A stretch of DNA of 64,000 nucleotides from an uncultured Clostridia bacterium (GCA_944362965.1 CALVTR010000001.1:90529-154528), one strand, 5' to 3'. Numbered from the stretch's first letter, positions 44,330 to 60,150 are shown. Made by a program: numbers and translations. The notes: generated by a model from the sequence alone, not told the origin.

Positions 44330-45040
44330 TTATATAAGTTTTATTAGTGTGTAGCCTGTTCGCCACTCATAATTTTTGCTTAGCAAATTGAAGGCTTGAG
44401 CTTCTCCCATTCCGCCTAATTTTAAAGATGTATGTTTGTCATAAGGCGTGGAAGAGAGTATTCTTAATGCTGAATAGCAGGCATCGCTAACCGCTATACA
44501 CGACGAAGTTTTGCAAGCAGGACATACAAGCTCACCGATATCAAGGTTGAGATATCTGCTTCCTAAAGTTGCTCCACATGATGAACATTTATCTGTTATA
44601 AAACTGCAACCCATTGCACTAAAAATATCTAGTAAGAATTTGTCAATCACATAAAATTTTTTCACATCTTCGTAACAAAGCGTTTCAAGTGCTTTAATTA
44701 TTGTTATAAATAGTTGCGGGTCGGGTTCTTTAACCACTTTATCAACTATATCTAAAATAGCACAAGCTTCATAATATTTCTCTATATTCTTTGAAAGGTC
44801 ATAGAAAGAATCAATTATAGAAACAGACGTCACTATATTTGCATTTTTTGTTGTCTCAATTATAAATTCACCGAAACAAAATATCTCTTTTGCTGATTTC
44901 AATTTTGCCTTATCACCGCGAACACCACGCATAGACACAACCATCTTGCCCTGTTCTAAGCTGTATAAGTGCAAGAGTTTGTCTTTGTCTTTAACGTTTG
45001 CCGCACGAATAACTATTGCTTTGACTTTTGTAGATGCCAT
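44330..45040 (-). CDS. recO: DNA repair protein RecO
   Basis: N-terminal OB-fold pattern (KAIVIRAANVKDKDKLLHLYS) and a C-terminal CxxC...CxxC zinc motif. Confidence 0.88.
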   Translation of the reverse strand: MASTKVKAIVIRAANVKDKDKLLHLYSLEQGKMVVSMRGVRGDKAKLKSAKEIFCFGEFIIETTKNANIVTSVSIIDSFYDLSKNIEKYYEACAILDIVDKVVKEPDPQLFITIIKALETLCYEDVKKFYVIDKFLLDIFSAMGCSFITDKCSSCGATLGSRYLNLDIGELVCPACKTSSCIAVSDACYSALRILSSTPYDKHTSLKLGGMGEAQAFNLLSKNYEWRTGYTLIKLI

Positions 45041-46505: not shown

Positions 46506-46581
46506 GGAAGTTTAGCTCAGCTGGGAGAGCATCTGCCTTACAAGCAGAGGGTCATAGGTTCGAGCCCTATAACTTCCACCA
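46506..46581 (+). tRNA. tRNA-Val (anticodon UAC) with encoded CCA
   Basis: Acceptor stem GGAAGTT/AACTTCC, D-loop AGCTCAGCTGGGAGAGC, anticodon loop CTTACAA, T-arm GGTTCGAGCCC and a 3' ACCA. Confidence 0.95.
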
Positions 46582-46693: not shown

Positions 46694-47419
46694 TTACTCT
46701 TTCCCTTTGTTTTTCTTATCTTTAATTTTCTTTTCTAATTTGTCAGCAAGTATATAGATAATGTATAGGTCAATTAAGCAAACTGATATAAAAACAAACC
46801 AATCAATGATTGTTAGCGCTGACCAATCTATTAGGTCGCTGCCAAGAAAACAGGTCATAGCCACGCAGACAGTTCGGCAAAATACAACTATCAGTAGGAA
46901 CTCCCACCAACGCATCTTAGTTATGCCAGCAACCATGCAAAGTGCGTCATCTGGAAAGAATGGAAATAAGAACATAAGCGGCAAGTATATCTTAGATTTT
47001 ACTGCTACTAAGTCTTGAGCTTTCTTTAGACTTTCTTCCCCTACCATTCTAATAGCTATTTTTTCTCCGCCGAATCTACCGATTAAAAACATAGCCATAC
47101 TTGATAGAACAACGCCAACAGAAGATATGACAAAGCCCTGCCATGCTCCAAATAGGATGATTGAAACAATAATAAAGGTCATGCTTGTTGCTGGGACTAA
47201 GCATAGCAACGTTGTCACTAGAACCTGTAATAATATAAACACTACCCATCCCCAAGCGCCACAGTCTGCTATTAGCGTTCGAAGACCATCAACTGATGTT
47301 ATACCAAGACTATCAAGAGTAATCCATGCTATGCCAGAGATAAAAACAATGCATGCAATTAGAATAACCCATTTAACCCACGTTTTCAGTTTCATTAGTG
47401 TCCTCGTCTTCAATAACAA
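46694..47419 (-). CDS. TVP38/TMEM64 (DedA-related) family membrane protein
   Basis: Polytopic protein with a pattern like the SNARE-associated/TVP38 family (LLQVLVTTLLCLVPATSM...GRFGGEKI). Overlaps the upstream gene; an alternative start lies at 47395. Confidence 0.65.
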   Translation of the reverse strand: MLLKTRTLMKLKTWVKWVILIACIVFISGIAWITLDSLGITSVDGLRTLIADCGAWGWVVFILLQVLVTTLLCLVPATSMTFIIVSIILFGAWQGFVISSVGVVLSSMAMFLIGRFGGEKIAIRMVGEESLKKAQDLVAVKSKIYLPLMFLFPFFPDDALCMVAGITKMRWWEFLLIVVFCRTVCVAMTCFLGSDLIDWSALTIIDWFVFISVCLIDLYIIYILADKLEKKIKDKKNKGKE

Positions 47420-51255: not shown

Positions 51256-51433
51256 CTTCGTTTATCTCCTTAGGTAATTCTTCATCACTCTCAATATAAG
51301 TGTATTTATTAGGAATATCTATTGCTTCAACATACTTCTTGCCCGTTTCGTTTTGAATAATATACTTATTAGCGTCACTGTATGTCTTTATAAGTTGTCT
51401 GTCGTTTACAATTATTGTTTCTTGTTTAATCAT
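51236..51433 (-). CDS. small phage protein
   Basis: 65-aa ORF overlapping both neighbouring genes. Confidence 0.45.
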   Translation of the reverse strand: MIKQETIIVNDRQLIKTYSDANKYIIQNETGKKYVEAIDIPNKYTYIESDEELPKEINEDEQQSI

Positions 51434-53262
51434 TCGCTCACCTCACTTGCTTTTACCCATTCTACATTTGTTAATGATACCCAGTTCGTTGCAGTTGTCC
51501 ACTCATCGTATAGTGCGTCTGGAATTATTATTTGACAGTTTGTAGCATGTCCTAAATAACTCACATTCGACAAGGTTGGAATAGTTGTGCAATATCTAAA
51601 ATCATACTTAGTAATTGCATTGCAGCTGCTATATTGTGATGAGTTTATATTTGGCGCCTGTCCTAGATAAGTTACAGACAACAAACTACTACAGCTTTGA
51701 AAGCATTGCCCTCCAACGTTTTCTACGCTTGATGGAATAGTTATGCTTGTTAAACCACTACAACTCATAAATACTGCATTATCTATATCTTTTAAAGAAT
51801 TAGGCAATATAACAGATTGCAATTCACGACATTGATGAAACGCACCATAACCTAACTGTAATAAGCCATCTGGAAGTGACACAGTTTTTAGATAATAACA
51901 ATTTTCAAACGCATCAGATAATATTATTTTACAATCTTTGTGAACTACGCATGAAGAAATGTGAGTATTTACGCAAGATTTTAATACAAGATATGAATTA
52001 TTCTTGCTAGAAAGATACCCTGCGTTGTCATAAACTTTTACATTTAAACTATAGCAATAATCAAAAGCACTAGAACCTATATCTTTTAAATTATCAGGAA
52101 GAGTTATATTTTTAAGGTTATGACAGCCATTAAATGCACTTATGTTTATTGTTGTTAAATTGTCGCAATCGGATAAATCAACTGTATTTAGACTATAGCA
52201 ATTTTGAAAGGCATAATTACCAATTTCTGTTATCGGCAACGATAGTTCTATATCTTTTATCTTTTTACAACCATTGCAAAGGTCACTTTCTATTTCTGTT
52301 ATATTTGTTTTCTCTAAATTTAAAGAATTTAAGCTATTACATTGCGAAAAAGCATTTGTATCTAATTCTGATATGTTGTTAGATATGCTTATTGATTCTA
52401 AGTTACTACAATTACAAAACGCATCACTTTTTATTGAATTGACAGATTGTGGCAACACAATATTTTTTAAATTATAGCAACTATAAAAACTATACTGCCC
52501 AATTTCAGTAATAGAATTAGGAATAACACAAGCTTTAAGATTGTAACAATAATAAAACATTCTTTCAAGATTAGTATATGGTTGCGTTCTCTTTGGTATC
52601 GTTATTGTTTCTAACGAGACCGCATATTGACACATTCTTAATAATGATGTATGTTGTTCGAGTCCAAGCCTGATATTTTTGCAACAATATAGATTGTTAT
52701 AAGCAATATTTGTGAATAAACTATAAGCACCATTAGAAACACTAAAATAAAACTCAAATGAGCCTGTAGCACTGACTTCAATGGTATAATTACCTTTCTG
52801 CTGATAAGTATGGCTATAGATAGTTGAATTAGCTCCCGACCTAACAGCATAAGTATCTGTTGTTCCATCACCCCAAGACACACTTATTGAACAATTATTA
52901 TCTACCATACTTGTTACGTTTATATTGCGAAATTGAACATATAGTCCAGTGCTATCATTTAGTTCAATATCAAACTCATCATTTTCGCTTGTTGTGATGT
53001 ATGTCGCACCAATAGTTATGTCGCTATCTTCAACTATTATTTGTCCATCAACGATATCTACAGGGCTCGTCCACTCTTGAAATGTCAATCTATCATGTGC
53101 TGGTGGCTCTGTAGGCAGCGTAAACGTATCGCCCGTGTCAAGCCAATCTTCTTTTAAGATTGTTCCATCGTAGTCAATTACTTTAATCCAATACTTGCCA
53201 TTGTGCATTTTGTCAGTATTGACTACAACTCCAACTTCCTTTCCATCTATGTATACTGGCAT
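51430..53262 (-). CDS. phage tail/receptor-binding protein with a PKD-like domain and BspA-type LRRs
   Basis: VSWGDGTTD...HTYQQKGNYTIEV is a PKD-like signature. About 13 repeats of the L-x-x-I-x-(L/I)P-x-S(V/I)-x-x-I-x-x-x-AF-x-x-C type follow. Confidence 0.7.
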   Translation of the reverse strand: MPVYIDGKEVGVVVNTDKMHNGKYWIKVIDYDGTILKEDWLDTGDTFTLPTEPPAHDRLTFQEWTSPVDIVDGQIIVEDSDITIGATYITTSENDEFDIELNDSTGLYVQFRNINVTSMVDNNCSISVSWGDGTTDTYAVRSGANSTIYSHTYQQKGNYTIEVSATGSFEFYFSVSNGAYSLFTNIAYNNLYCCKNIRLGLEQHTSLLRMCQYAVSLETITIPKRTQPYTNLERMFYYCYNLKACVIPNSITEIGQYSFYSCYNLKNIVLPQSVNSIKSDAFCNCSNLESISISNNISELDTNAFSQCNSLNSLNLEKTNITEIESDLCNGCKKIKDIELSLPITEIGNYAFQNCYSLNTVDLSDCDNLTTINISAFNGCHNLKNITLPDNLKDIGSSAFDYCYSLNVKVYDNAGYLSSKNNSYLVLKSCVNTHISSCVVHKDCKIILSDAFENCYYLKTVSLPDGLLQLGYGAFHQCRELQSVILPNSLKDIDNAVFMSCSGLTSITIPSSVENVGGQCFQSCSSLLSVTYLGQAPNINSSQYSSCNAITKYDFRYCTTIPTLSNVSYLGHATNCQIIIPDALYDEWTTATNWVSLTNVEWVKASEVSE

Positions 53263-54676: not shown

Positions 54677-54704
54677 ATTTTCTCCTTAAATTAAAAAAGC
54701 AAGA

Positions 54705-55190
54705 CTACTTGTCCTGCTTTGTTTCGTTATTTTTTAATCTCTGTTTTGCTTCATCATGTTTAAATACATTACTTGACAATCTTACAAGCAAATCATCTTC
54801 TTCTTTCGGAAATAGATATTCCGCTATTATTTTAGGAATTTTTATCAATGCTGTTATTATACTTGCAATTGCTGCTACTACGCTAGGAACGATTGTATAC
54901 CATTCACTAGCAAAGATAGGAACAATTATAGTAGTCGCTATTCCACCTAATATTACAACAACATACATAATCATTACTATCAAGAAAAATGGTTTTTTTA
55001 ACTTTCTTTTCTGCTCATGGTTTTTTATGCTTGATTCAGCTACATTTTTAAGGATTTCATTATGTAAATCGTTATCGGGATGTTCATTTGCTATCTCTTT
55101 AGATATAGATACATCTTTAACCTGCATTACATTATTAGAAATTAACTCTTGTAATTCTTTTATTTGGTCTTGTAAATTAGTAGGAGTCAT
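54705..55190 (-). CDS. two-TM membrane protein, translationally coupled to the ImmA-like gene
   Basis: ATGA overlap with 55187-55726. Central hydrophobic hairpin. Confidence 0.55.
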   Translation of the reverse strand: MTPTNLQDQIKELQELISNNVMQVKDVSISKEIANEHPDNDLHNEILKNVAESSIKNHEQKRKLKKPFFLIVMIMYVVVILGGIATTIIVPIFASEWYTIVPSVVAAIASIITALIKIPKIIAEYLFPKEEDDLLVRLSSNVFKHDEAKQRLKNNETKQDK

Positions 55191-55726
55191 CTCTGCCTCC
55201 TGCTATATTCATCAAACTTAATCTTTGCAGCTGAATATGAAACTTGGAATTTGTTAGATATAAATCTTGGTATATCTGAAAAAAGTAAATCAACGTTTTT
55301 AATATTCCTTAATTCATACTTTAAAAAATCAATTGGCATTAAAAGTTCACTAGCAAATTTATCGGCTTCTCTTTCTTTTTTATAATCATCAATAATTTGT
55401 TCTCTATGAACATAATAATATGGAATTGTATCTTCTTTTTCGTGTATTTCTAAAAAATAATGTCCAAGTTCATGTGCAATGGTAAATCTCTTTCTTAAGG
55501 GATTCTCGGATGTGTTTATAGCAATAATTTTATTGTATTTTTTCTCATTGTAAAGTAACCCATTTTTGCTATAAATTAAAAACCCTGATTCATCATCTTC
55601 CATTACTTTTTCAATTACCAAAAAACCATAATTTTCAGCAATTTCTACTATAGGAACAGGAGCTTTTACGACATTACATGCTTTTAGAATTTCTCTGACT
55701 AACTCTTCTATTTTTCTGTTTTCCAT
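55187..55726 (-). CDS. ImmA/IrrE-family zinc metallopeptidase
   Basis: HEXXH motif in FTIAHELGHYFL, plus a downstream E...READKFASELLMP typical of COG2856. Confidence 0.8.
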   Translation of the reverse strand: MENRKIEELVREILKACNVVKAPVPIVEIAENYGFLVIEKVMEDDESGFLIYSKNGLLYNEKKYNKIIAINTSENPLRKRFTIAHELGHYFLEIHEKEDTIPYYYVHREQIIDDYKKEREADKFASELLMPIDFLKYELRNIKNVDLLFSDIPRFISNKFQVSYSAAKIKFDEYSRRQR

Positions 55727-55743
55727 GCTCCCTCCTTTTTATT

Positions 55744-55773
55744 ATTATAGTATTTTATCATAAAATTTGTCAA
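55744..55773 (-). promoter_or_regulatory. internal sigmaA-type promoter in front of the ImmA-like gene
   Basis: Minus strand reads TTGACA (55768-55773), an 18-nt spacer, then TATAAT (55744-55749), followed by an AAAGGAGGGAG RBS. Confidence 0.55.
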
Positions 55774-55874
55774 GTACAAGATTTAATTTTATAAGAAATG
55801 GAATTTTGCCCAATATTTTTGCGATTTTTGCACTTTTTATGCAAATATTTAAAAAATAATATCAACTTTCCCCT

Positions 55875-56363
55875 TTATTTCTCCATTTTATCAATGTCTT
55901 GTGGAGTTGTATTCTCTTTAGACGATAGATGAAGTTTTGAAATAAATTCATTTTTATGATTTATTATATAAAATACATTAAACAAACAAATTGCTTCAGT
56001 AATAAGCATAATTAGAATAAAACAAATAAAAGGCAAGATGCTATAAATTAGTTCAAACTTCCAATCAATTGTATATTCGGGAAGAGGTGTATTATAATCA
56101 ACTGAAAGAACAAAGAGTACAATAAACATTATAATTGCAATAACAACATTCAATAACTCTAAAATATTATTATTCTTTAAAAATATATTAAGTATTAGAA
56201 AAATTACAGAAATACATAATATAGTTATAAATAATATATCTGTGTTTGCAATTTCCCCGAAATACAATGAATAACCATTAGTTACAATAACAGTGATTAA
56301 GATATCTATAAGAGCAACGACTGATATAATGCTAAACAGAATATAATTCAATTTATTTTTCAT
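55875..56363 (-). CDS. polytopic membrane protein
   Basis: 162 aa with about five hydrophobic helices; very AT-rich coding sequence. Confidence 0.55.
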   Translation of the reverse strand: MKNKLNYILFSIISVVALIDILITVIVTNGYSLYFGEIANTDILFITILCISVIFLILNIFLKNNNILELLNVVIAIIMFIVLFVLSVDYNTPLPEYTIDWKFELIYSILPFICFILIMLITEAICLFNVFYIINHKNEFISKLHLSSKENTTPQDIDKMEK

Positions 56364-56408
56364 AAACTAATGATAATATATTGGCAATATTTTGTCAACG
56401 GAAAATTT

Positions 56409-56960
56409 TTATTCATCCAGCTTATTTATCTTGTCCTGTAAATGTTTGCGGCGTTTTTCTTTCCAAGATTGCCTAAATTGAGTAAAATCTATGCGTGGGA
56501 AATTTTTATTTTTTATATCAACAATGACTTGAACTGCAACAAAAACAAAAGCCATAAATAAGAATATTGTTGCAAATAATTGAGTCAACATAAAAGTTGT
56601 TAATTCATTATTTGAAAAAATTTCATTCCAACTTAACGACATTTTGCTTAAGTAAAAAGTAAAGTCATCAATTGTGTATGTTAAAGATAAAATAAAACTT
56701 ATAATAAGAAATATCAAAGATGCAACCTTTAATAATATTAGCCATGAAAAATTTTTATGTTTTGTAAAATAAAAACATATTACACAATACATAATAGTTG
56801 CAAGCAACAAAAACACAAACATAAAAATCAATCGTAATAAATCACTTCCGGTAATACCATATTTTATAAAATAATCCACATGGTATGAAAGTAAACCTAT
56901 AGAAACGATTAAAAACACGCATGTTGTAATTAGAAATGTTTGATTTATATATTTTTTCAT
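56409..56960 (-). CDS. polytopic membrane protein
   Basis: 183 aa with about five hydrophobic helices and a basic C-terminal tail. Confidence 0.55.
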   Translation of the reverse strand: MKKYINQTFLITTCVFLIVSIGLLSYHVDYFIKYGITGSDLLRLIFMFVFLLLATIMYCVICFYFTKHKNFSWLILLKVASLIFLIISFILSLTYTIDDFTFYLSKMSLSWNEIFSNNELTTFMLTQLFATIFLFMAFVFVAVQVIVDIKNKNFPRIDFTQFRQSWKEKRRKHLQDKINKLDE

Positions 56961-57005
56961 AAAACCTCTTATTTTATTTTAATAAATAATTAGTTTATAT
57001 GTCAA

Positions 57006-59696
57006 CTAAATACAAATATTTAAAGAATTGTTGTAAATATGTTTATCTATATTATTTATAATCAATAACGGATTGTTTAGATTATCTAAAAAAACAACGG
57101 ATGCTTGATTACTAAAATCACCGTCTATTTTTATTACTAAACTATTATTTGTTTCTTCAACTGTAACATTGAATGTTTGGTTACTTGCATCTTTAAAACT
57201 GTCATATTCTGTTTTATTTTTAGAGAAACATTTAACTATATAATTAACATTAGAGTTGTTGCCATTTAATATAGAATCTTGTAAAAACTGTTGACAAAAG
57301 ATTATATCTTCATTGTCTAACTGAAACGACAATGTTATATTTAATCTCTCAAGCATGTCTTTATAGTAATTTATATTATTTAAAGCATATATATTTGATA
57401 ACTTTAATGAATCTATAAAACTATCATTGATTTGTGGTATCCCTGCAGCAAATATAAAACTATCAACTAACGTTTGATAAATTTCTTCTGTTACGTTATC
57501 AGTATCTATAGCATCTCCATTAGATGCATTACCATTTGTTAGATATTGAGTTACATCAATATTTGGTAGATTGCATAGAAATATATTCAGCAAACCTATT
57601 TCTCCAAGTGGGTCTGTATATAAAACTGGTATTTGTGCTTGAACACTTCCATATTCATGAACAAACCTTGTAGATGAAGAACTACTAGTATAATTTAATG
57701 TTTTACTATTTCCACAATAAGCATTATTTGGCATAAGTATATTAAAACAAATTGTATTATTTGAGAAAAAAGTGTTTATAGGATACGCAATAGTCCTTTC
57801 ATAATTTTCTATTGTTGCATCATTTTTTGTTAATACACTTTTAATTTCAAATAGAGCAATTTGTGGATTTGCTTGTCCTATTTGAGATTTATCTAAAAGA
57901 CTAGAAAATACAAGTTTTTTGAGATTTATCCCAATATCACTATTTTGCTGATTATTTTCAAAACCAATTTTAATAATTTTATTAAAACTAGTCTTTCTTT
58001 CCTGTATATTTTGATAACTTATAGCTATATTACTTCTTATAGATTTATTGGCTTTAACTGAGTTATTCCTTCTAAAATGATTTTCATTAAGTTGATAAAC
58101 TGCTAATAGTTCAAAGTTAAGATTTTGATAAGAAGAACCTGTAATCATATATCTTTTATCATTTTCCTCATCATAAACCAAGCTACCTATTTCATACATT
58201 TCTTCTGGATGGTAATGCTTTTTTATAATAGTCAAATCACTTTTTCCCATTGACTGTAAATATTTGTGAAGATATTTATAATATTTAAAAGCATCAAGTT
58301 GACTATCTACTTGGTTATAAATAGTTTGATATTCAGTATTCCCTAACTCTAATTTGGGGTTAATAAAAGGTTCAAACTCTATATAATACCAATAAGAATA
58401 ATCTTTACGTCCATCAGTTCCATTAGAAGCATAATAATAATTTTTAATATATAAAAAATCATCCCCTTCTGCATAATGGTATAACTCAGTCATACTTTCC
58501 TTTTCATCATCTGTCAAAACGAGATATTGTTGGTCTTCATAACAAAATTTTTCCAATCCATCACTAATTACAGCACCTACTTTGTATTCATCTGGTAATA
58601 AATTATAATTTTCATATCTTAACCTAATTTTTAATATTTTTATCTTATTTATCTTCTTTATAGGGCATGGAAACTTAATACCCCAACCGCTATCTGGCGT
58701 ATCAGCTGCAGTTGTATCTCTTTGTGTTGAATTAAGTTCAGGTGCTGCCCAAAAGTTTTGAGAAGGAAACGCAAGATTAGAACCCGTCACAAGATTTTCT
58801 ACGTTGCTGACAACGCCTGTGGCGAAGTTTGATAGACTTGATTTATAAGTTACATTTTGTGCGTTTGCGGTGATATCTGATAAGTTAAGAACAGGTTTAT
58901 CAAAACCGTCTTGGCGAAGAAATTTAAGTATATACTCATCTCTGTCTAGGTTGCGAGGCAGGTCAGTTTCTGTGTCCATGTCAAAAAACATGCATGGTGT
59001 TCTTCCTGTGCTTTTGTCATACTTAAACAAAATGGTATACAAATCAGGTTCGGTGAATGAGTCACTGTCAAAAGGTATATTCTTTAAAAAGTCCTTATCA
59101 AGAATTTTTATTCTATTAAACCAAGACTTATTGTTATGCGGATTGTATCCTTCGTCATAGTTATCGCAGTTCGCAGGTGTAACCTTTAAAAAACGCTCTA
59201 GAGCGGTCAAATGATTATAAGGCTCTTTAATATATGTTACAGTGTTTCCTGAGCCATCTGTGACTGTTTTTGACGTCTGATTAGTATAGGCTAAAGTTTC
59301 GCCAACAACAAATCGCATACGTTCTATAGGCTCAAGTAATGACAGTTTAACAAGCCAATATGATTTATCTTTACTCTGAGCCATTTGAAAGTCGCCGATA
59401 ACATATTGACTATGATTTAGTGGCAATCCGTTTTCATCATAGGTCGCCACCATATTGTCACCTTTATGAAAGTGCAATATTCTTGCCCACTGCATGTGTT
59501 TTATATTAGGCTTTGCGGAACTTCGCCACTTAAAGTTTAAGCTTGCATCATCAGTTGTTTCATCTTGAACAAATGTTTCACCAAAGCCAATTTGTGGTGC
59601 AAGCAAACTCGACCACTGCCCTGTATCTCTGTCGAAAAACTGAAATTTGCAAAGCCAGTCTTGTGTATTTTTACCCTCTGTTGTAGACATACTCAT
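57006..59696 (-). CDS. large phage tail structural protein
   Basis: About 896 aa, the largest protein of the module, positioned after the putative tail proteins. The start is taken at MSMSTTEG after GGGGGAGAG. Confidence 0.55.
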   Translation of the reverse strand: MSMSTTEGKNTQDWLCKFQFFDRDTGQWSSLLAPQIGFGETFVQDETTDDASLNFKWRSSAKPNIKHMQWARILHFHKGDNMVATYDENGLPLNHSQYVIGDFQMAQSKDKSYWLVKLSLLEPIERMRFVVGETLAYTNQTSKTVTDGSGNTVTYIKEPYNHLTALERFLKVTPANCDNYDEGYNPHNNKSWFNRIKILDKDFLKNIPFDSDSFTEPDLYTILFKYDKSTGRTPCMFFDMDTETDLPRNLDRDEYILKFLRQDGFDKPVLNLSDITANAQNVTYKSSLSNFATGVVSNVENLVTGSNLAFPSQNFWAAPELNSTQRDTTAADTPDSGWGIKFPCPIKKINKIKILKIRLRYENYNLLPDEYKVGAVISDGLEKFCYEDQQYLVLTDDEKESMTELYHYAEGDDFLYIKNYYYASNGTDGRKDYSYWYYIEFEPFINPKLELGNTEYQTIYNQVDSQLDAFKYYKYLHKYLQSMGKSDLTIIKKHYHPEEMYEIGSLVYDEENDKRYMITGSSYQNLNFELLAVYQLNENHFRRNNSVKANKSIRSNIAISYQNIQERKTSFNKIIKIGFENNQQNSDIGINLKKLVFSSLLDKSQIGQANPQIALFEIKSVLTKNDATIENYERTIAYPINTFFSNNTICFNILMPNNAYCGNSKTLNYTSSSSSTRFVHEYGSVQAQIPVLYTDPLGEIGLLNIFLCNLPNIDVTQYLTNGNASNGDAIDTDNVTEEIYQTLVDSFIFAAGIPQINDSFIDSLKLSNIYALNNINYYKDMLERLNITLSFQLDNEDIIFCQQFLQDSILNGNNSNVNYIVKCFSKNKTEYDSFKDASNQTFNVTVEETNNSLVIKIDGDFSNQASVVFLDNLNNPLLIINNIDKHIYNNSLNICI

Positions 59697-60150
59697 CTCT
59701 CCCCCATTTACCTTTTTGTATCGTGTAACCATATAAGTCTAAACTGCCAGCAAGAACAAGGCTATTATCACGCTCATTTGCTTCCGCAGCTTCCTGTCTA
59801 AGCTCGGCAATTCTATTCTGTATAGCTGAAATTATAGACGTTATGGCTTGAGTTGCTATTCCAAGAATTGCTCCTGTTATTGCTCCTGCCCCAGCACCTG
59901 TGATTATAGCTTTACCTAAGCTTACAACAGGTGACAAATTAAAGCCTATTTGAGATGACACTTGGCTTATCATTTGCCCTGAAAGTTGTCCAATAAGCTT
60001 GCCTGTTGCTTCTTCAAAACCGCTTTTCTTACCTTTGTTTTGCTGACCTATGCTGTTTAGTGAAGTTGTGCCTTCTTGAATGTTTGTCTGTCTTAAAACA
60101 CCATCTTCTGTGTTGTCAACAAAAGAGATAGTATAGTATTTCTGTTGCAT
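59671..60150 (-). CDS. phage protein with a Gly/Ala-rich hydrophobic core
   Basis: 159 aa. The segment GKAIITGAGAGAITGAILGIATQAITSIISAI resembles tape-measure or internal-protein segments, but the protein is far too short for a canonical tape measure. Confidence 0.45.
   Translation of the reverse strand: MQQKYYTISFVDNTEDGVLRQTNIQEGTTSLNSIGQQNKGKKSGFEEATGKLIGQLSGQMISQVSSQIGFNLSPVVSLGKAIITGAGAGAITGAILGIATQAITSIISAIQNRIAELRQEAAEANERDNSLVLAGSLDLYGYTIQKGKWGRDEYVYNRG

What the first reader, a model, noticed from the sequence alone, without database searches (positions are those of the whole stretch)
54705..56960. Four-gene cassette (ImmA-like peptidase plus three membrane proteins) with its own promoter inside the tail module
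Four genes are inserted between the large tail protein (57006-59696) and the fibre genes. They are two polytopic membrane proteins, then an ImmA/IrrE HEXXH metallopeptidase that is translationally coupled (ATGA overlap) to a two-TM protein. By eye the coding sequence is more AT-rich than the flanking structural genes. A near-consensus promoter (TTGACA-18-TATAAT) precedes the peptidase gene, which implies expression independent of the late operon, as expected for a lysogeny-expressed insert (moron). ImmA peptidases normally pair with an XRE repressor. Here the partner is a membrane protein, an arrangement reminiscent of abortive-infection or exclusion modules, but not one I can assign to a described system.
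Basis: partly seen in the sequence, partly recalled or inferred. Interest (0 to 1): 0.6.

Follow-up and report, generated by a model that had tools for sequence, protein, structure and literature searches.

The report
Rosmer-like toxin–antitoxin insert in prophage hotspot
A prophage of a gut Clostridia bacterium carries, in a slot of its tail-gene region where related phages carry other defence genes, a self-contained two-gene unit (a small zinc peptidase plus a two-helix membrane protein) that most resembles the known RosmerTA anti-phage toxin–antitoxin systems, so it is real and well defined but not a new kind of system.

Summary
The four genes are not one cassette. G1 (56409-56960, 4 TM) is a core gene of this prophage lineage. 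G2 (55875-56363, 4 TM) is an orphan in a conserved position. Only the promoter plus G3 and G4 (55814-54719) form the exchangeable unit. It lies between a 65-nt junction shared with relatives and a 26-nt hairpin that is conserved (one base change in L017/L018) before the fibre gene in the 15 relatives that reach that point. In that slot relatives carry AbiL (four loci), a PIN/DUF4325 trio, a HicB module and others. Two phages with an identical tail protein carry different cargo. The slot is therefore a defence or accessory hotspot, and the "moron" reading holds. G3 is a 179-aa stand-alone M78 peptidase. G4 belongs to a large unannotated 2-TM family, and 12 of 13 IMG/VR members have an M78-like gene immediately upstream. 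The closest described system is RosmerTA of Gordonia phage Kita: a 178-aa M78 antitoxin overlapping a small 2-TM membrane-depolarising toxin, located after tail genes. I conclude this is a Rosmer-like toxin–antitoxin or abortive-infection module, a new member of a known kind. Function, expression and trigger are untested.

The parts
56976..57005 (-). Promoter-like site (TTGACA-18-TAAAAT) that overlaps the stop codon of the 894-aa gene and precedes G1.
   Evidence: 11/12 match. An equivalent TTGACA site precedes the first gene of the slot in L009, L034 and L017, and TTGACT in L010, L015/L037 and L035.
56409..56960 (-). G1: a 183-aa protein with 4 TM segments. It is a core gene of the lineage and not part of the exchangeable insert. 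Its function is unknown; superinfection exclusion is one candidate.
   Evidence: ORF and TM scan. Homologues sit in the same slot in L009, L015, L011/L012, L034, L037 and L010, and indirectly in L035 through the L010 protein. There is no Pfam, PHROG or PADLOC match.
56370..56398 (-). Promoter-like site (TTGACA-17-TATCAT) before G2.
   Evidence: 11/12 match.
55875..56363 (-). G2: a 162-aa protein with 4 TM segments and no detectable relatives. In L015, L037 and L038 a 162-aa 4-TM protein with no detectable similarity occupies the same position.
   Evidence: Among 5.8 billion proteins only a 98%-identical copy of G2 itself was found. BLASTP against the L015 162-aa protein gives E = 0.24.
55815..55879 (-). 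Conserved left junction of 65 nt. It starts at the G2 stop codon and contains the palindrome TTTGCA-N7-TGCAAA (55845-55824). Identity with AbiL-carrying relatives ends here.
   Evidence: Alignment A7. The 22-nt core matches exactly in L015, L035, L036 and L038. It occurs once in the window.
55744..55773 (-). Perfect sigma-70/sigma-A-type consensus promoter (TTGACA-18-TATAAT) of the G3-G4 unit.
   Evidence: The homologous pair in L013 has TTGACA-18-TATAAT, and the pair in L014 has TTGACA-18-CATAAT.
55187..55726 (-). G3: a 179-aa stand-alone ImmA/IrrE-type (M78) zinc peptidase with HELGH at 85-89 and the EREADKFASELLMP motif. It has no HTH, no GAF domain and no cysteine switch. It is the predicted RmrA-like antitoxin or regulator.
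   Evidence: Pfam 1.7e-17. PADLOC capP 2.8e-32 over model positions 3-155 of 242, and RmrA models down to 4e-13. PDB 7T5T CapP matches the peptidase domain only. G3 is 27% identical to Kita RmrA, E = 2e-12.
54705..55190 (-). G4: a 161-aa 2-TM protein with a cytoplasmic N-terminal region (about 67 aa) and a cytoplasmic C-terminal helix, and the motifs K..LK..FF-TM1-TM2-IPKIIAEYLFPKEED. It is the predicted membrane-perturbing toxin or effector. Its start overlaps the G3 stop (ATGA).
   Evidence: The AF2 model has pLDDT 81. Family members give weak SLATT_1, Csx27 and 2TM-effector hits.
54693..54718 (-). Conserved hairpin plus T-run (AGCAGGACAAGTAGTCTTGCTTTTTT). It is the right junction of the exchangeable unit and a likely terminator of the insert's transcript. 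It supplies the last codons and the stop codon of G4 and lies 16 nt before the fibre-gene ATG (54676).
   Evidence: The sequence is identical, with one wobble-preserving change in L017/L018, in the 12 relatives with DNA homology or a printed junction, and each different cargo ends exactly at it. It is also present in L041-L044.

Best explanation
The ORF positions, the comparative pattern and the pairing are shown. All functional and mechanistic steps are inferred by analogy.

The promoter, G3 and G4 (55814-54719) form an autonomous, horizontally exchanged two-gene module of the RosmerTA type, sitting in a defence or accessory-gene hotspot of a temperate Clostridia phage.

G4 is the effector. 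It is a small inner-membrane protein with a 2-TM hairpin (remotely SLATT-like) that, when unrestrained, perturbs or depolarises the membrane and stops growth. G3 is a minimal ImmA-type zinc peptidase. It is made first from the same transcript and is translationally coupled to G4. It keeps G4 harmless, either by binding its cytoplasmic segments or by cleaving them.

In a lysogen the unit would be transcribed from its own consensus promoter and stopped at the conserved hairpin, so the downstream fibre genes stay silent. Infection by another phage would upset the G3:G4 balance, for example through loss or inhibition of G3. G4 would then be freed and the infection aborted.

G1 and G2 are separate. 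G1 is a conserved 4-TM protein of the lineage. G2 is a lineage-specific 4-TM orphan in a second variable position. Their roles are unknown.
For: 1. Hotspot.
- In relatives the same interval holds AbiLi+AbiLii (PADLOC 3e-78/8e-24 and 8e-89/2e-23) in L011 and L015, and AAA_21+RloB in L035 and L038.
- It holds a 289-aa + DUF4325 + PIN trio in L009, L017/18 and L042, and a HicB module in L034.
- It holds an 82-aa protein with a SEC-C/aspartic-protease protein in L010, L041 and L044, and a 381+92+147-aa trio in L012 and L037.
- The identical tail protein P0010 is found with two different cargos (L037 and L038).

2. Exact swap boundaries. DNA homology to relatives stops at the end of G1 (or, for AbiL-carrying relatives, at 55815) and resumes at 54719, the conserved hairpin.

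3. Autonomy. The G3+G4 pair, with 51-66% identical proteins and its own TTGACA-18-TATAAT or CATAAT promoter, also occurs next to gidA/gidB in a bacterial genome contig (L013) and in another contig (L014).

4. Obligate pairing.
- The G4 family has 98 cluster representatives at E <= 1e-10 and 649 at E <= 1e-3.
- In 12 of 13 IMG/VR loci with a family member, an M78-like gene lies directly upstream on the same strand, with spacing from a 17-nt overlap to a 19-nt gap.
- The surrounding contexts differ: a lysogeny region, after lysis genes, and inside structural genes.

5. Known analogue.
- Gordonia phage Kita genes 32 and 33 are a 178-aa M78 peptidase and a 119-aa 2-TM protein with a 4-nt overlap, placed after the minor tail genes.
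- They are a validated RosmerTA: the toxin depolarises the membrane, the antitoxin neutralises it partly, and the pair defends against Bas54 according to both the text and the Fig. 5E legend, which disagree on whether Bas59 or Bas60 is the second phage (PMC10440598).
- G3 is 27% identical to Kita RmrA.
- The two pairs give the same PADLOC pattern: capP is the best hit, RmrA models follow, and the toxin hits nothing.

6. Effector nature of G4. Nine of 60 family members hit NCBIfam SLATT_1 (best 5e-8). There are sporadic hits to Csx27, CARF_TM, PycTM and 2TM-effector models.

7. Consistent with G4 being costly. An A7-to-A8 frameshift truncates G4 before TM1, with G3 intact, in two independent assemblies (L002 and L003). 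P0045 is another frameshifted allele.

8. The partner in L024 is an M78 homologue (hhalign 87%) with AHELGH replaced by AYQIAI. This suggests neutralisation need not require catalysis.
Against: - No experiment supports toxicity, neutralisation, defence or lysogenic expression for this pair.
- G4 is not detectably homologous to Kita RmrT (hhalign probability 2%) or to any PADLOC RmrT model.
- The SLATT signal is weak and comes from only 15% of the family members tested. TM-rich profiles are prone to spurious matches.
- Foldseek found nothing significant for the G4 model.
- G3 lacks the N-terminal HTH of the classical RmrA models, which are about 360-400 positions long.
- Catalytic residues are conserved in 11 of the 12 partner peptidases, so proteolysis probably matters. 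Its direction (inactivating or activating G4) is unknown.
- The frameshifts lie in a homopolymer and could be assembly errors.
- Placement in a hotspot is guilt by association.
Confidence: 0.55

Rival explanations
1. Protease-activated pore. G4 is made as an inactive pro-form. G3 senses infection or DNA damage, as ImmA, IrrE and CapP do, and cleaves off G4's cytoplasmic N- or C-terminal segment. This releases a pore-forming 2-TM core, a logic similar to bacterial gasdermin activation.
For: All characterised ImmA/IrrE/CapP peptidases act by signal-dependent cleavage of a partner (PMC13228613). HEXXH is intact in G3 and in 11 of the 12 partner peptidases. G4 has a poorly conserved, partly disordered N-terminal region (pLDDT below 50 at residues 22-37) ahead of a highly conserved core.
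Against: G3 lacks the HTH/GAF sensor domains and the cysteine switch that couple CapP and IrrE to ssDNA. One partner (L024) has lost the catalytic motif yet keeps an intact ORF. In Rosmer systems the peptidase behaves as an antitoxin: an rmrA deletion could not be transformed, and the Kita toxin is toxic on its own.
Confidence: 0.2
2. Superinfection-exclusion unit. G4, possibly together with G1 and G2, is a prophage-expressed membrane protein that blocks DNA entry of competing phages without killing the cell. G3 only matures it or regulates its turnover.
For: Three membrane proteins lie in a row, each with a promoter-like site, in a prophage. Small membrane proteins are found at the start of the slot in every close relative examined.
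Against: The strict coupling of the G4 family to an M78 peptidase (12 of 13 loci) and the independence of the pair from G1 and G2 in L013, L014 and the IMG/VR loci fit a two-component TA or Abi unit better. The closest validated analogue is a depolarising toxin.
Confidence: 0.1
3. G3 is the prophage's own anti-repressor protease (ImmA proper). It cleaves an XRE-type repressor encoded elsewhere in the prophage to trigger induction, and G4 is an unrelated neighbour.
For: G3 is a minimal ImmA-like protein, similar in size to B. subtilis ImmA (from my own knowledge). The lysogeny module of this prophage lies outside the window and could not be inspected.
Against: No HTH gene is adjacent. G3 is absent from all close relatives of the phage, which must still regulate induction. 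G3 moves together with G4 into non-phage and unrelated phage contexts. Its position equals that of AbiL in relatives.
Confidence: 0.05
4. A purely selfish addiction module. The pair is a toxin-antitoxin that stabilises itself or the prophage and has no anti-phage role.
For: It has TA-like architecture. A HicB-containing module occupies the same slot in L034.
Against: The same slot carries a bona fide abortive-infection system, AbiL, in four relatives. Rosmer systems tested so far do defend.
Confidence: 0.1

Closest known systems
RosmerTA of Gordonia phage Kita (genes 32/33; RmrA YP_009301393 and RmrT YP_009301394; Ernits et al. 2023, PMC10440598)
   Same: Both have a stand-alone M78 peptidase of 178-179 aa without an HTH, followed by a small 2-TM protein with a cytoplasmic N-terminal region. 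In both the genes overlap by 4 nt, the peptidase comes first, the host is a temperate phage, and the pair lies directly after tail genes. The peptidases are 27% identical and give the same PADLOC hit pattern.
   Different: The toxins are not detectably homologous (hhalign probability 2%). There is only a motif-level resemblance: LPxIIAxYLF aligns with LAYIITSDLF. G4 is 161 aa and has an extra C-terminal helix, whereas the Kita toxin is 119 aa. The host phyla differ (Bacillota and Actinomycetota). Nothing has been tested experimentally for the window's pair.
Classical RosmerTA (Millman et al. 2022; PADLOC RmrA/RmrT models)
   Same: Both are two-gene units in which a zinc-peptidase antitoxin is paired with a toxin of unknown or variable fold, and both are linked to phage defence.
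   Different: The RmrA models are 357-400 positions long and G3 matches only their peptidase core, roughly positions 125-285. According to Ernits et al. 2023, proteins of this antitoxin node often carry an N-terminal HTH, which G3 lacks. No RmrT model matches G4 or 60 of its relatives.
CapP/CapH, IrrE/DdrO and ImmA/ImmR peptidase-repressor pairs
   Same: They share the same peptidase fold and catalytic motif. CapP is the best PADLOC hit (2.8e-32) and the only PDB sequence hit (7T5T, 5.5e-8).
   Different: G3 has no central HTH, no C-terminal GAF domain and no cysteine between the zinc ligands. The partner is a 2-TM membrane protein and not an HTH repressor.
SLATT-domain 2-TM effectors (partners of SMODS/CBASS, SLOG, CARF, reverse transcriptases; Csx27)
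   Same: G4 has a 2-TM hairpin flanked by cytoplasmic helices. Nine of 60 family members hit NCBIfam SLATT_1 (best 5e-8). Others hit Csx27, CARF_TM or RTasSLATT weakly.
   Different: G4 itself does not reach any SLATT model. The family has its own invariant motif, (L/I)PxIIAxYLFPxxED. Its partner is an M78 peptidase and not a nucleotide-signalling enzyme.
Morons and defence hotspots of temperate phages (HK97/lambda morons; P2/P4 hotspots, Rousset et al. 2022, cited from my own knowledge)
   Same: The unit consists of a promoter, genes and a terminator inserted between late genes. Its base composition is deviant. Related phages carry different defence cargo at one fixed position.
   Different: This is a different phage lineage (uncultured Clostridia/Eubacteriales prophages with no match in GenBank phages). 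The junctions are unusually sharp: a 65-nt left sequence and a 26-nt right hairpin.

Membership tests
ImmA/IrrE (Peptidase_M78, PF06114) | Sequence match above the curated threshold, and an HEXXH motif with a downstream Glu ligand in an E..A(D/N).FA..LLMP motif. | tested here: met
   63.8 bits against a cut-off of 22. HELGH at residues 85-89 and EREADKFASELLMP at 118-131.
CapP (CBASS-associated peptidase) | A peptidase domain with a central HTH and a C-terminal GAF domain that together form the ssDNA groove. Many members also have a cysteine-switch loop. | tested here: not met
   G3 has 179 aa and covers only positions 3-155 of the 242-position capP model, and residues 72-183 of the 291-aa chain 7T5T. 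There is no Cys between H89 and E120. The features are as defined in PMC13228613.
CapP/CapH, ImmA/ImmR, IrrE/DdrO pairs | An adjacent HTH (XRE-type) repressor as the substrate. | tested here: not met
   There is no HTH ORF next to G3, and the neighbours are membrane proteins. The repressor of this prophage lies outside the window and was not examined.
RosmerTA (broad sense: M78-peptidase antitoxin + toxin) | A two-gene operon with an M78/zinc-peptidase protein next to a second, non-HTH protein, and conservation of this pairing across genomes. | tested here: met
   ATGA overlap. The pairing is found in L013, L014 and 12 of 13 IMG/VR loci. The PADLOC pattern is the same as for the validated Kita RmrA.
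RosmerTA (broad sense) | The toxin is toxic alone and neutralised by the peptidase protein, and the system protects against phage. | not testable with these tools
   This needs expression and plaque assays. The only indirect hints are the frameshifted G4 alleles.
RosmerTA (PADLOC/Millman models) | RmrA with the full architecture of the 357-400-position models (per Ernits et al. 2023 often including an N-terminal HTH), and RmrT matching a known RmrT model. | tested here: not met
   G3 matches only the peptidase core of the RmrA models. G4 and 60 of its relatives hit no RmrT model at E <= 0.01.
Kita RmrT (NetFlax node D5) | Sequence or profile homology of the toxin. | tested here: inconclusive
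   hhalign of A6 against Kita gp33 gives probability 2% and E = 0.024, but the alignment places the conserved post-TM2 motifs on each other. The template is a single sequence, so the test has low power.
SLATT 2-TM effector superfamily | A match to SLATT profiles, and a 2-TM hairpin with flanking helices. | tested here: inconclusive
   Nine of 60 family members hit NF033634 SLATT_1 (best 5e-8), two hit Pfam SLATT_1, and G4 itself hits none. The topology is compatible. Foldseek was uninformative.
Phage moron | Own promoter and terminator, located between late genes, absent from close relatives, and deviant composition. | tested here: met
   The promoter and terminator are sequence predictions, and transcription was not measured.
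Defence hotspot / island | Different known defence systems occupy the same locus in related genomes. | tested here: met
   AbiL is present in L011, L015, L035 and L038. HicB, PIN and other cargos are found elsewhere. The identical tail protein occurs with two different cargos.

The most novel reading that the evidence does not exclude
G3 is not an antitoxin but an infection-triggered protease. It would cleave the cytoplasmic N- or C-terminal segment of a SLATT-like 2-TM pro-toxin and so open a membrane pore. That would be a gasdermin-like, protease-gated suicide switch made of two proteins totalling only 340 aa, and it would be widespread: 98 cluster representatives at E <= 1e-10, and 649 at the looser E <= 1e-3, which for a TM-rich profile may include false positives. 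A second, less likely novelty is that the 65-nt left junction and the 26-nt hairpin are recognition sites of a dedicated cassette-exchange mechanism, not merely flanks for homologous recombination.
Probability: 0.2. Interest if true: 0.7.

Novelty: new member of a known kind. Interest (0 to 1): 0.42.

Why it matters
- It maps a defence or accessory hotspot, with nucleotide-precise boundaries, in a lineage of uncultured gut Clostridia prophages that has no relative in GenBank phage records. The conserved hairpin and the 65-nt junction can serve as probes to collect more cargo. Three of the cargos found at this slot (289 aa + DUF4325 + PIN; 381 + 92 + 147 aa; 82 aa + a SEC-C/aspartic-protease protein) match no complete PADLOC system and are candidates for new defence systems.
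- It links a sizeable unannotated 2-TM protein family (motif LPxIIAxYLFPxxED), which has no significant match of its own in Pfam, PADLOC or NCBIfam and only a marginal PHROG hit of unknown function, to M78 peptidases. This extends the membrane-toxin branch of Rosmer-type systems, for which only one validated example (phage Kita) came up in the papers I read, into Bacillota.
- It gives a compact pair on which to ask how a peptidase controls a membrane toxin.

Tried and rejected
- DNA and tblastn searches of GenBank phages found nothing. I queried the 12-kb region, the 894-aa protein, G4 and three other G4-family members.
- Single-sequence scans of IMG/VR with the tail protein and with G3 found nothing. 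Alignment-based scans worked.
- The first AF2 model of G4, built from 5 sequences, was poor (pLDDT 57). The 60-sequence model was usable (pLDDT 81). Foldseek against PDB and BFVD gave no significant match, and the afdb50 library was unavailable.
- G2 has no homologues and no detectable similarity to the positional 162-aa counterpart in relatives.
- The 894-aa protein family and the 470-aa fibre-like protein have no PDB sequence match, so their structural roles remain positional guesses.
- There is no Rfam family in 53-60 kb.
- I considered the A7 tract in G4 as a phase-variation device and rejected that as unsupported, because the tract is not conserved in homologues.
- I had read the L025 upstream gene by eye as a degenerate peptidase. 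hhalign gives probability 0.8%, so homology is not established.
- Sbash gp30/31 and RexAB came up in the literature search. They are a different two-component membrane system (DUF4747 protein + 4-TM protein) and are not related to this pair.
Full report
**1. What is in the sequence**

| Gene | Coordinates | Length | TM segments |
|---|---|---|---|
| G1 | 56409-56960 | 183 aa | 4 |
| G2 | 55875-56363 | 162 aa | 4 |
| G3 | 55187-55726 | 179 aa | 0 |
| G4 | 54705-55190 | 161 aa | 2 (residues about 68-93 and 97-118) |

- Both ends of G4 are predicted to be cytoplasmic, because the sequence before TM1 is rich in Lys and Arg.
- G3 matches Peptidase_M78 (1.7e-17). It has HELGH and the downstream EREADKFASELLMP motif.
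- The G3 stop and the G4 start overlap as ATGA.
- TTGACA-18-TATAAT lies at 55773-55744. A perfect consensus of this type occurs twice in 64 kb, against 0.11 expected.
- 11/12 promoter matches also precede G1 and G2.
- A hairpin with a T-run (54718-54693, -12.6 kcal/mol, z = -3.8) follows G4 and ends 16 nt before the ATG of the next gene.
- GC is 0.258 across the four genes, 0.358 in the bacterial part of the window and 0.35-0.365 in the rest of the prophage. The low-GC tract also covers the 3' 1.5 kb of the upstream 894-aa gene.

**2. What the window is**

ORFs in 1-45 kb encode DnaK, DnaJ, GrpE, HrcA, FtsZ, FtsW, Mur ligases, SpoIIGA, sporulation sigma factors and SpoIIR. RecO is at 44330-45040. 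tRNA-Val lies at 46506-46581, and phage genes start at 46694.

The phage part carries a major head protein (phrog_422). On the matching metagenome scaffold it also carries an SPP1-type portal, a Phage_min_cap2 protein and a DUF4355 protein.

The element is therefore a prophage integrated in a spore-forming Clostridia chromosome. Two relatives come from genome bins (MAGs) labelled uncultured Clostridia and Eubacteriales. GenBank phages contain nothing similar at the DNA or protein level.

The labels 'tail protein' for the 894-aa gene and 'fibre' for the 470-aa gene rest on gene order, a weak PHROG hit and the neighbouring BspA-type LRR protein. PDB sequence searches were empty.

**3. The interval is a hotspot, and the four genes are not one unit**

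Forty homologues of the 894-aa protein were found. I read the gene neighbourhoods of eight of them and of further relatives from genome, viral and metagenome collections.

Head and connector genes, the 894-aa gene and the fibre-like gene are syntenic throughout. The interval between the last two always begins with one to four small membrane proteins and then holds different cargo:

| Cargo | Loci | Evidence |
|---|---|---|
| AbiLi+AbiLii (AAA_21 + RloB) | L011, L015, L035, L038 | PADLOC 3e-78/8e-24 and 8e-89/2e-23 for L011 and L015; Pfam AAA_21 + RloB for L035 and L038 |
| 289 aa + DUF4325 + PIN | L009, L017/18, L042 | |
| 381 + 92 + 147 aa | L012, L037 | |
| 82 aa + SEC-C/aspartic-protease protein | L010, L041, L044 | |
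| HicB module | L034 | |
| G3+G4 | window | |

- Two contigs that encode the identical tail protein P0010 differ only in cargo (L037 and L038).
- G1 has homologues in the same place in all close relatives. Identity is about 61% to the closest copies and about 35-40% in L010 and L034. In L035 the link is indirect, through the fused 8-TM protein of L010.
- G2 has no homologue anywhere. In L015, L037 and L038 a 162-aa 4-TM protein with no detectable similarity sits at the equivalent position.

**4. Breakpoints**

DNA homology between the window and the 12 relatives aligned or inspected at this junction resumes at window 54718-54719 (54740 in L009). That is where the hairpin AGCAGGACAAGTAGTCTTGCTTTTTT begins.

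The hairpin is identical in these relatives, apart from one A-to-G change in L017/L018 that keeps the base pair. Sequences immediately 5' of it are unrelated between cargo types. G4's last codons and its stop codon lie inside this conserved element.

On the other side, homology to most relatives ends at the G1 stop codon. A 65-nt block starts at the G2 stop codon (55879-55815) and contains the palindrome TTTGCA-N7-TGCAAA. This block is nearly identical in the AbiL-carrying relatives L015, L035, L036 and L038. Identity ends exactly where the cargo-specific promoters begin.

The exchangeable unit in the window is therefore 55814-54719: the promoter, G3 and G4. It occupies precisely the place of AbiL in these relatives.

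**5. The pair is an autonomous, recurrent module**

- Close homologues of G4 are rare: six were found in 5.8 billion proteins.
- In the two homologues whose context I looked up, an M78 peptidase overlaps the G4 homologue. One is next to gidA/gidB in a bacterial genome contig (L013). The other is in an unrelated contig (L014).
- Both have their own consensus promoter (TTGACA-18-TATAAT or CATAAT), and L013 has flanking terminators.
- A profile search of 1.84 billion representatives shows a much larger family: 98 representatives at E <= 1e-10 and 649 at E <= 1e-3, with lengths of 150-200 aa.
- The family has invariant motifs around the hairpin: K..LK..FF-TM1-TM2-(L/I)PxIIAxYLFPxxED.
- Of 13 IMG/VR loci with a family member, 12 have an M78-like gene directly upstream on the same strand, with spacing from a 17-nt overlap to a 19-nt gap. 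The surrounding contexts differ.
- One of these partners (L024) is a clear M78 homologue (hhalign 87%) that has lost the catalytic motif (AHELGH replaced by AYQIAI).
- The upstream gene in L025 is not demonstrably related.

**6. What the proteins resemble**

- *G3.* The best PADLOC hit is capP (2.8e-32), followed by many RmrA models, always over the peptidase core only. The only PDB sequence hit is CapP 7T5T, residues 72-183 of 291.
- *What G3 lacks.* It has none of the HTH, GAF or cysteine-switch elements that make CapP and IrrE ssDNA sensors. It is a minimal ImmA-like enzyme.
- *G4 in family libraries.* G4 and its family have no significant match of their own in Pfam, PADLOC or NCBIfam, and only a marginal hit to an unknown-function PHROG. 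Nine of 60 members hit NCBIfam SLATT_1 (best 5e-8), and a few hit Csx27, CARF_TM, PycTM, RTasSLATT or 2TM-effector models.
- *G4 structure.* An AF2 model (pLDDT 81) shows a short N-terminal helix, a low-confidence linker, a long helix running into TM1, a tight turn, TM2 continuing through IIAEYLF, a kink at Pro128 and a C-terminal helix. Fold searches were uninformative.
- *Reading.* I read G4 as a remote SLATT-like 2-TM effector, with low to moderate confidence.

**7. Comparison with known systems**

RosmerTA was defined as a zinc-peptidase antitoxin with a toxin of unknown function. The rmrA deletion could not be transformed (Millman et al.).

Ernits et al. 2023 (PMC10440598) validated the RosmerTA of Gordonia phage Kita. 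RmrA is annotated only as Peptidase_M78. RmrT is 'transmembrane'. It depolarises and permeabilises E. coli membranes, and RmrA neutralises it partly. The pair protects against Bas54 in both the text and the Fig. 5E legend of that paper. The two disagree on whether Bas59 or Bas60 is the second phage.

In the Kita genome (KU963257), genes 32 (178 aa) and 33 (119 aa) overlap by 4 nt and lie just after the minor tail protein genes.

- G3 is 27% identical to Kita gp32 (E = 2e-12).
- Kita gp32 and gp33 give the same PADLOC pattern as G3 and G4.
- Kita gp33 has the same topology as G4, but homology is not significant (hhalign 2%), although the post-TM2 motifs align.

The window's pair therefore has the architecture of a validated system with a different, or very diverged, toxin.

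**8. Most likely mechanism**

Shown: the ORFs, the coupling, the promoter and terminator consensus, the variability among relatives, the swap boundaries, the recurrence of the pairing, and peptidase family membership.

Inferred by analogy with Kita RosmerTA and with the other cargos of the hotspot:
- G4 is a membrane-perturbing toxin.
- G3 keeps it in check.
- The unit is expressed from the prophage.
- It aborts infection by other phages.

The order (peptidase first), the overlap, the strong promoter, the catalytically dead partner in L024 and the natural frameshifts that hit G4 but not G3 all fit the antitoxin reading better than a protease-activation reading. The frameshifts are A7 to A8 just before TM1 in two independent assemblies and a further allele, P0045. 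None of this is decisive. The conserved HEXXH in most partners says that catalysis usually matters.

The conserved hairpin would stop insert transcripts in the lysogen. Late transcription must read through it to reach the fibre genes. How that happens is unknown.

**9. Rivals**

- Protease-activated pore (0.2).
- Non-lethal superinfection exclusion (0.1).
- Selfish addiction only (0.1).
- G3 as the prophage's own anti-repressor (0.05). This is disfavoured because G3 is absent from close relatives and travels with G4.

**10. Verdict**

The moron and defence interpretation is supported by comparative evidence. The idea of a four-gene cassette is not: only the promoter, G3 and G4 form the insert. 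The pair can be assigned to the RosmerTA kind, membrane-toxin type.

Novelty is modest: a new member of a known kind, with a previously unannotated toxin family and a sharply delimited hotspot in an unstudied gut prophage lineage.

Noticed in passing
window 57006-58500: The 3' 1.5 kb of the 894-aa 'tail' gene has the same low GC (0.254) as the cassette. It has no DNA homology to L011, L012, L015, L035, L037 or L038, although the 5' part is 77% identical. The C-terminal third of this protein is therefore itself a swapped module, possibly a host-range domain.
   Followed up: partly
window 54999-55005 (A7 tract in G4); L002 1560-1568; L003 1516-1523: Two independent metagenome assemblies of the same prophage carry A8 in place of A7. 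This truncates G4 just before TM1 while G3 stays intact. P0045 is another frameshifted allele of a close homologue. The tract is not conserved in other homologues, so it may reflect loss of a costly toxin or a homopolymer assembly error.
   Followed up: partly
window 55815-55879: A 65-nt intergenic block with the palindrome TTTGCA-N7-TGCAAA is nearly identical in the window and in AbiL-carrying relatives. It lies between non-homologous upstream genes (G2 and the unrelated 162-aa or 170-aa proteins) and non-homologous cargo. Its role is unknown; it could be a recombination flank, an operator or a weak terminator.
   Followed up: partly
L009 11439-13207; L017/L018 13187-14969; L042: A three-gene cargo (about 289 aa + DUF4325 + PIN-like protein) recurs at the hotspot in phages whose tail proteins are only 53-82% identical. 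The L009 proteins were scanned and have no PADLOC match. It is a candidate uncharacterised defence system.
   Followed up: no
L012 11899-13765; L037 11584-13450: A second unassigned three-gene cargo (381 + 92 + 147 aa, the last with one TM segment) sits at the same slot. Its 381-aa protein has no PADLOC match; the 92- and 147-aa proteins were not scanned against PADLOC. None of the three has a precomputed Pfam domain.
   Followed up: no
L010 11891-12684; L041; L044: A two-gene cargo consists of an 82-aa protein and a 182-aa protein with a retropepsin-like aspartic protease and a SEC-C motif. Its C-terminus weakly matches PADLOC PDC-S12 and E2-type models.
   Followed up: no
L024 3085-3771: The M78 partner of a G4-family gene has lost the catalytic motif (AHELGH replaced by AYQIAI) but keeps a full-length ORF. 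It is a pseudo-peptidase that presumably still binds its 2-TM partner.
   Followed up: partly
window 46506-46581: tRNA-Val lies directly next to the last prophage gene (a DedA/VTT-domain membrane protein, 46694-47419). This is the probable attachment site.
   Followed up: partly
window 51430-53262: A 610-aa BspA-type leucine-rich-repeat protein (LRR_5, 2e-67) follows the fibre-like gene. Part of it also has low GC (0.27-0.29 at 51750-52750), and it is replaced by other proteins in several relatives. It is a likely receptor-binding module.
   Followed up: no
window 59671-60150: A 159-aa protein with a Gly/Ala/Ile-rich hydrophobic segment precedes the 894-aa gene, and no long tape-measure gene is visible in the window. 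The tail type of this phage lineage is unclear.
   Followed up: no
window 1-45000: The bacterial part includes a TraG/T4SS coupling-protein homologue (T4SS-DNA_transf 1.3e-36, TraG-D_C 1.1e-31) among housekeeping and sporulation genes. A second mobile element may be present. I did not determine which ORF it is.
   Followed up: no
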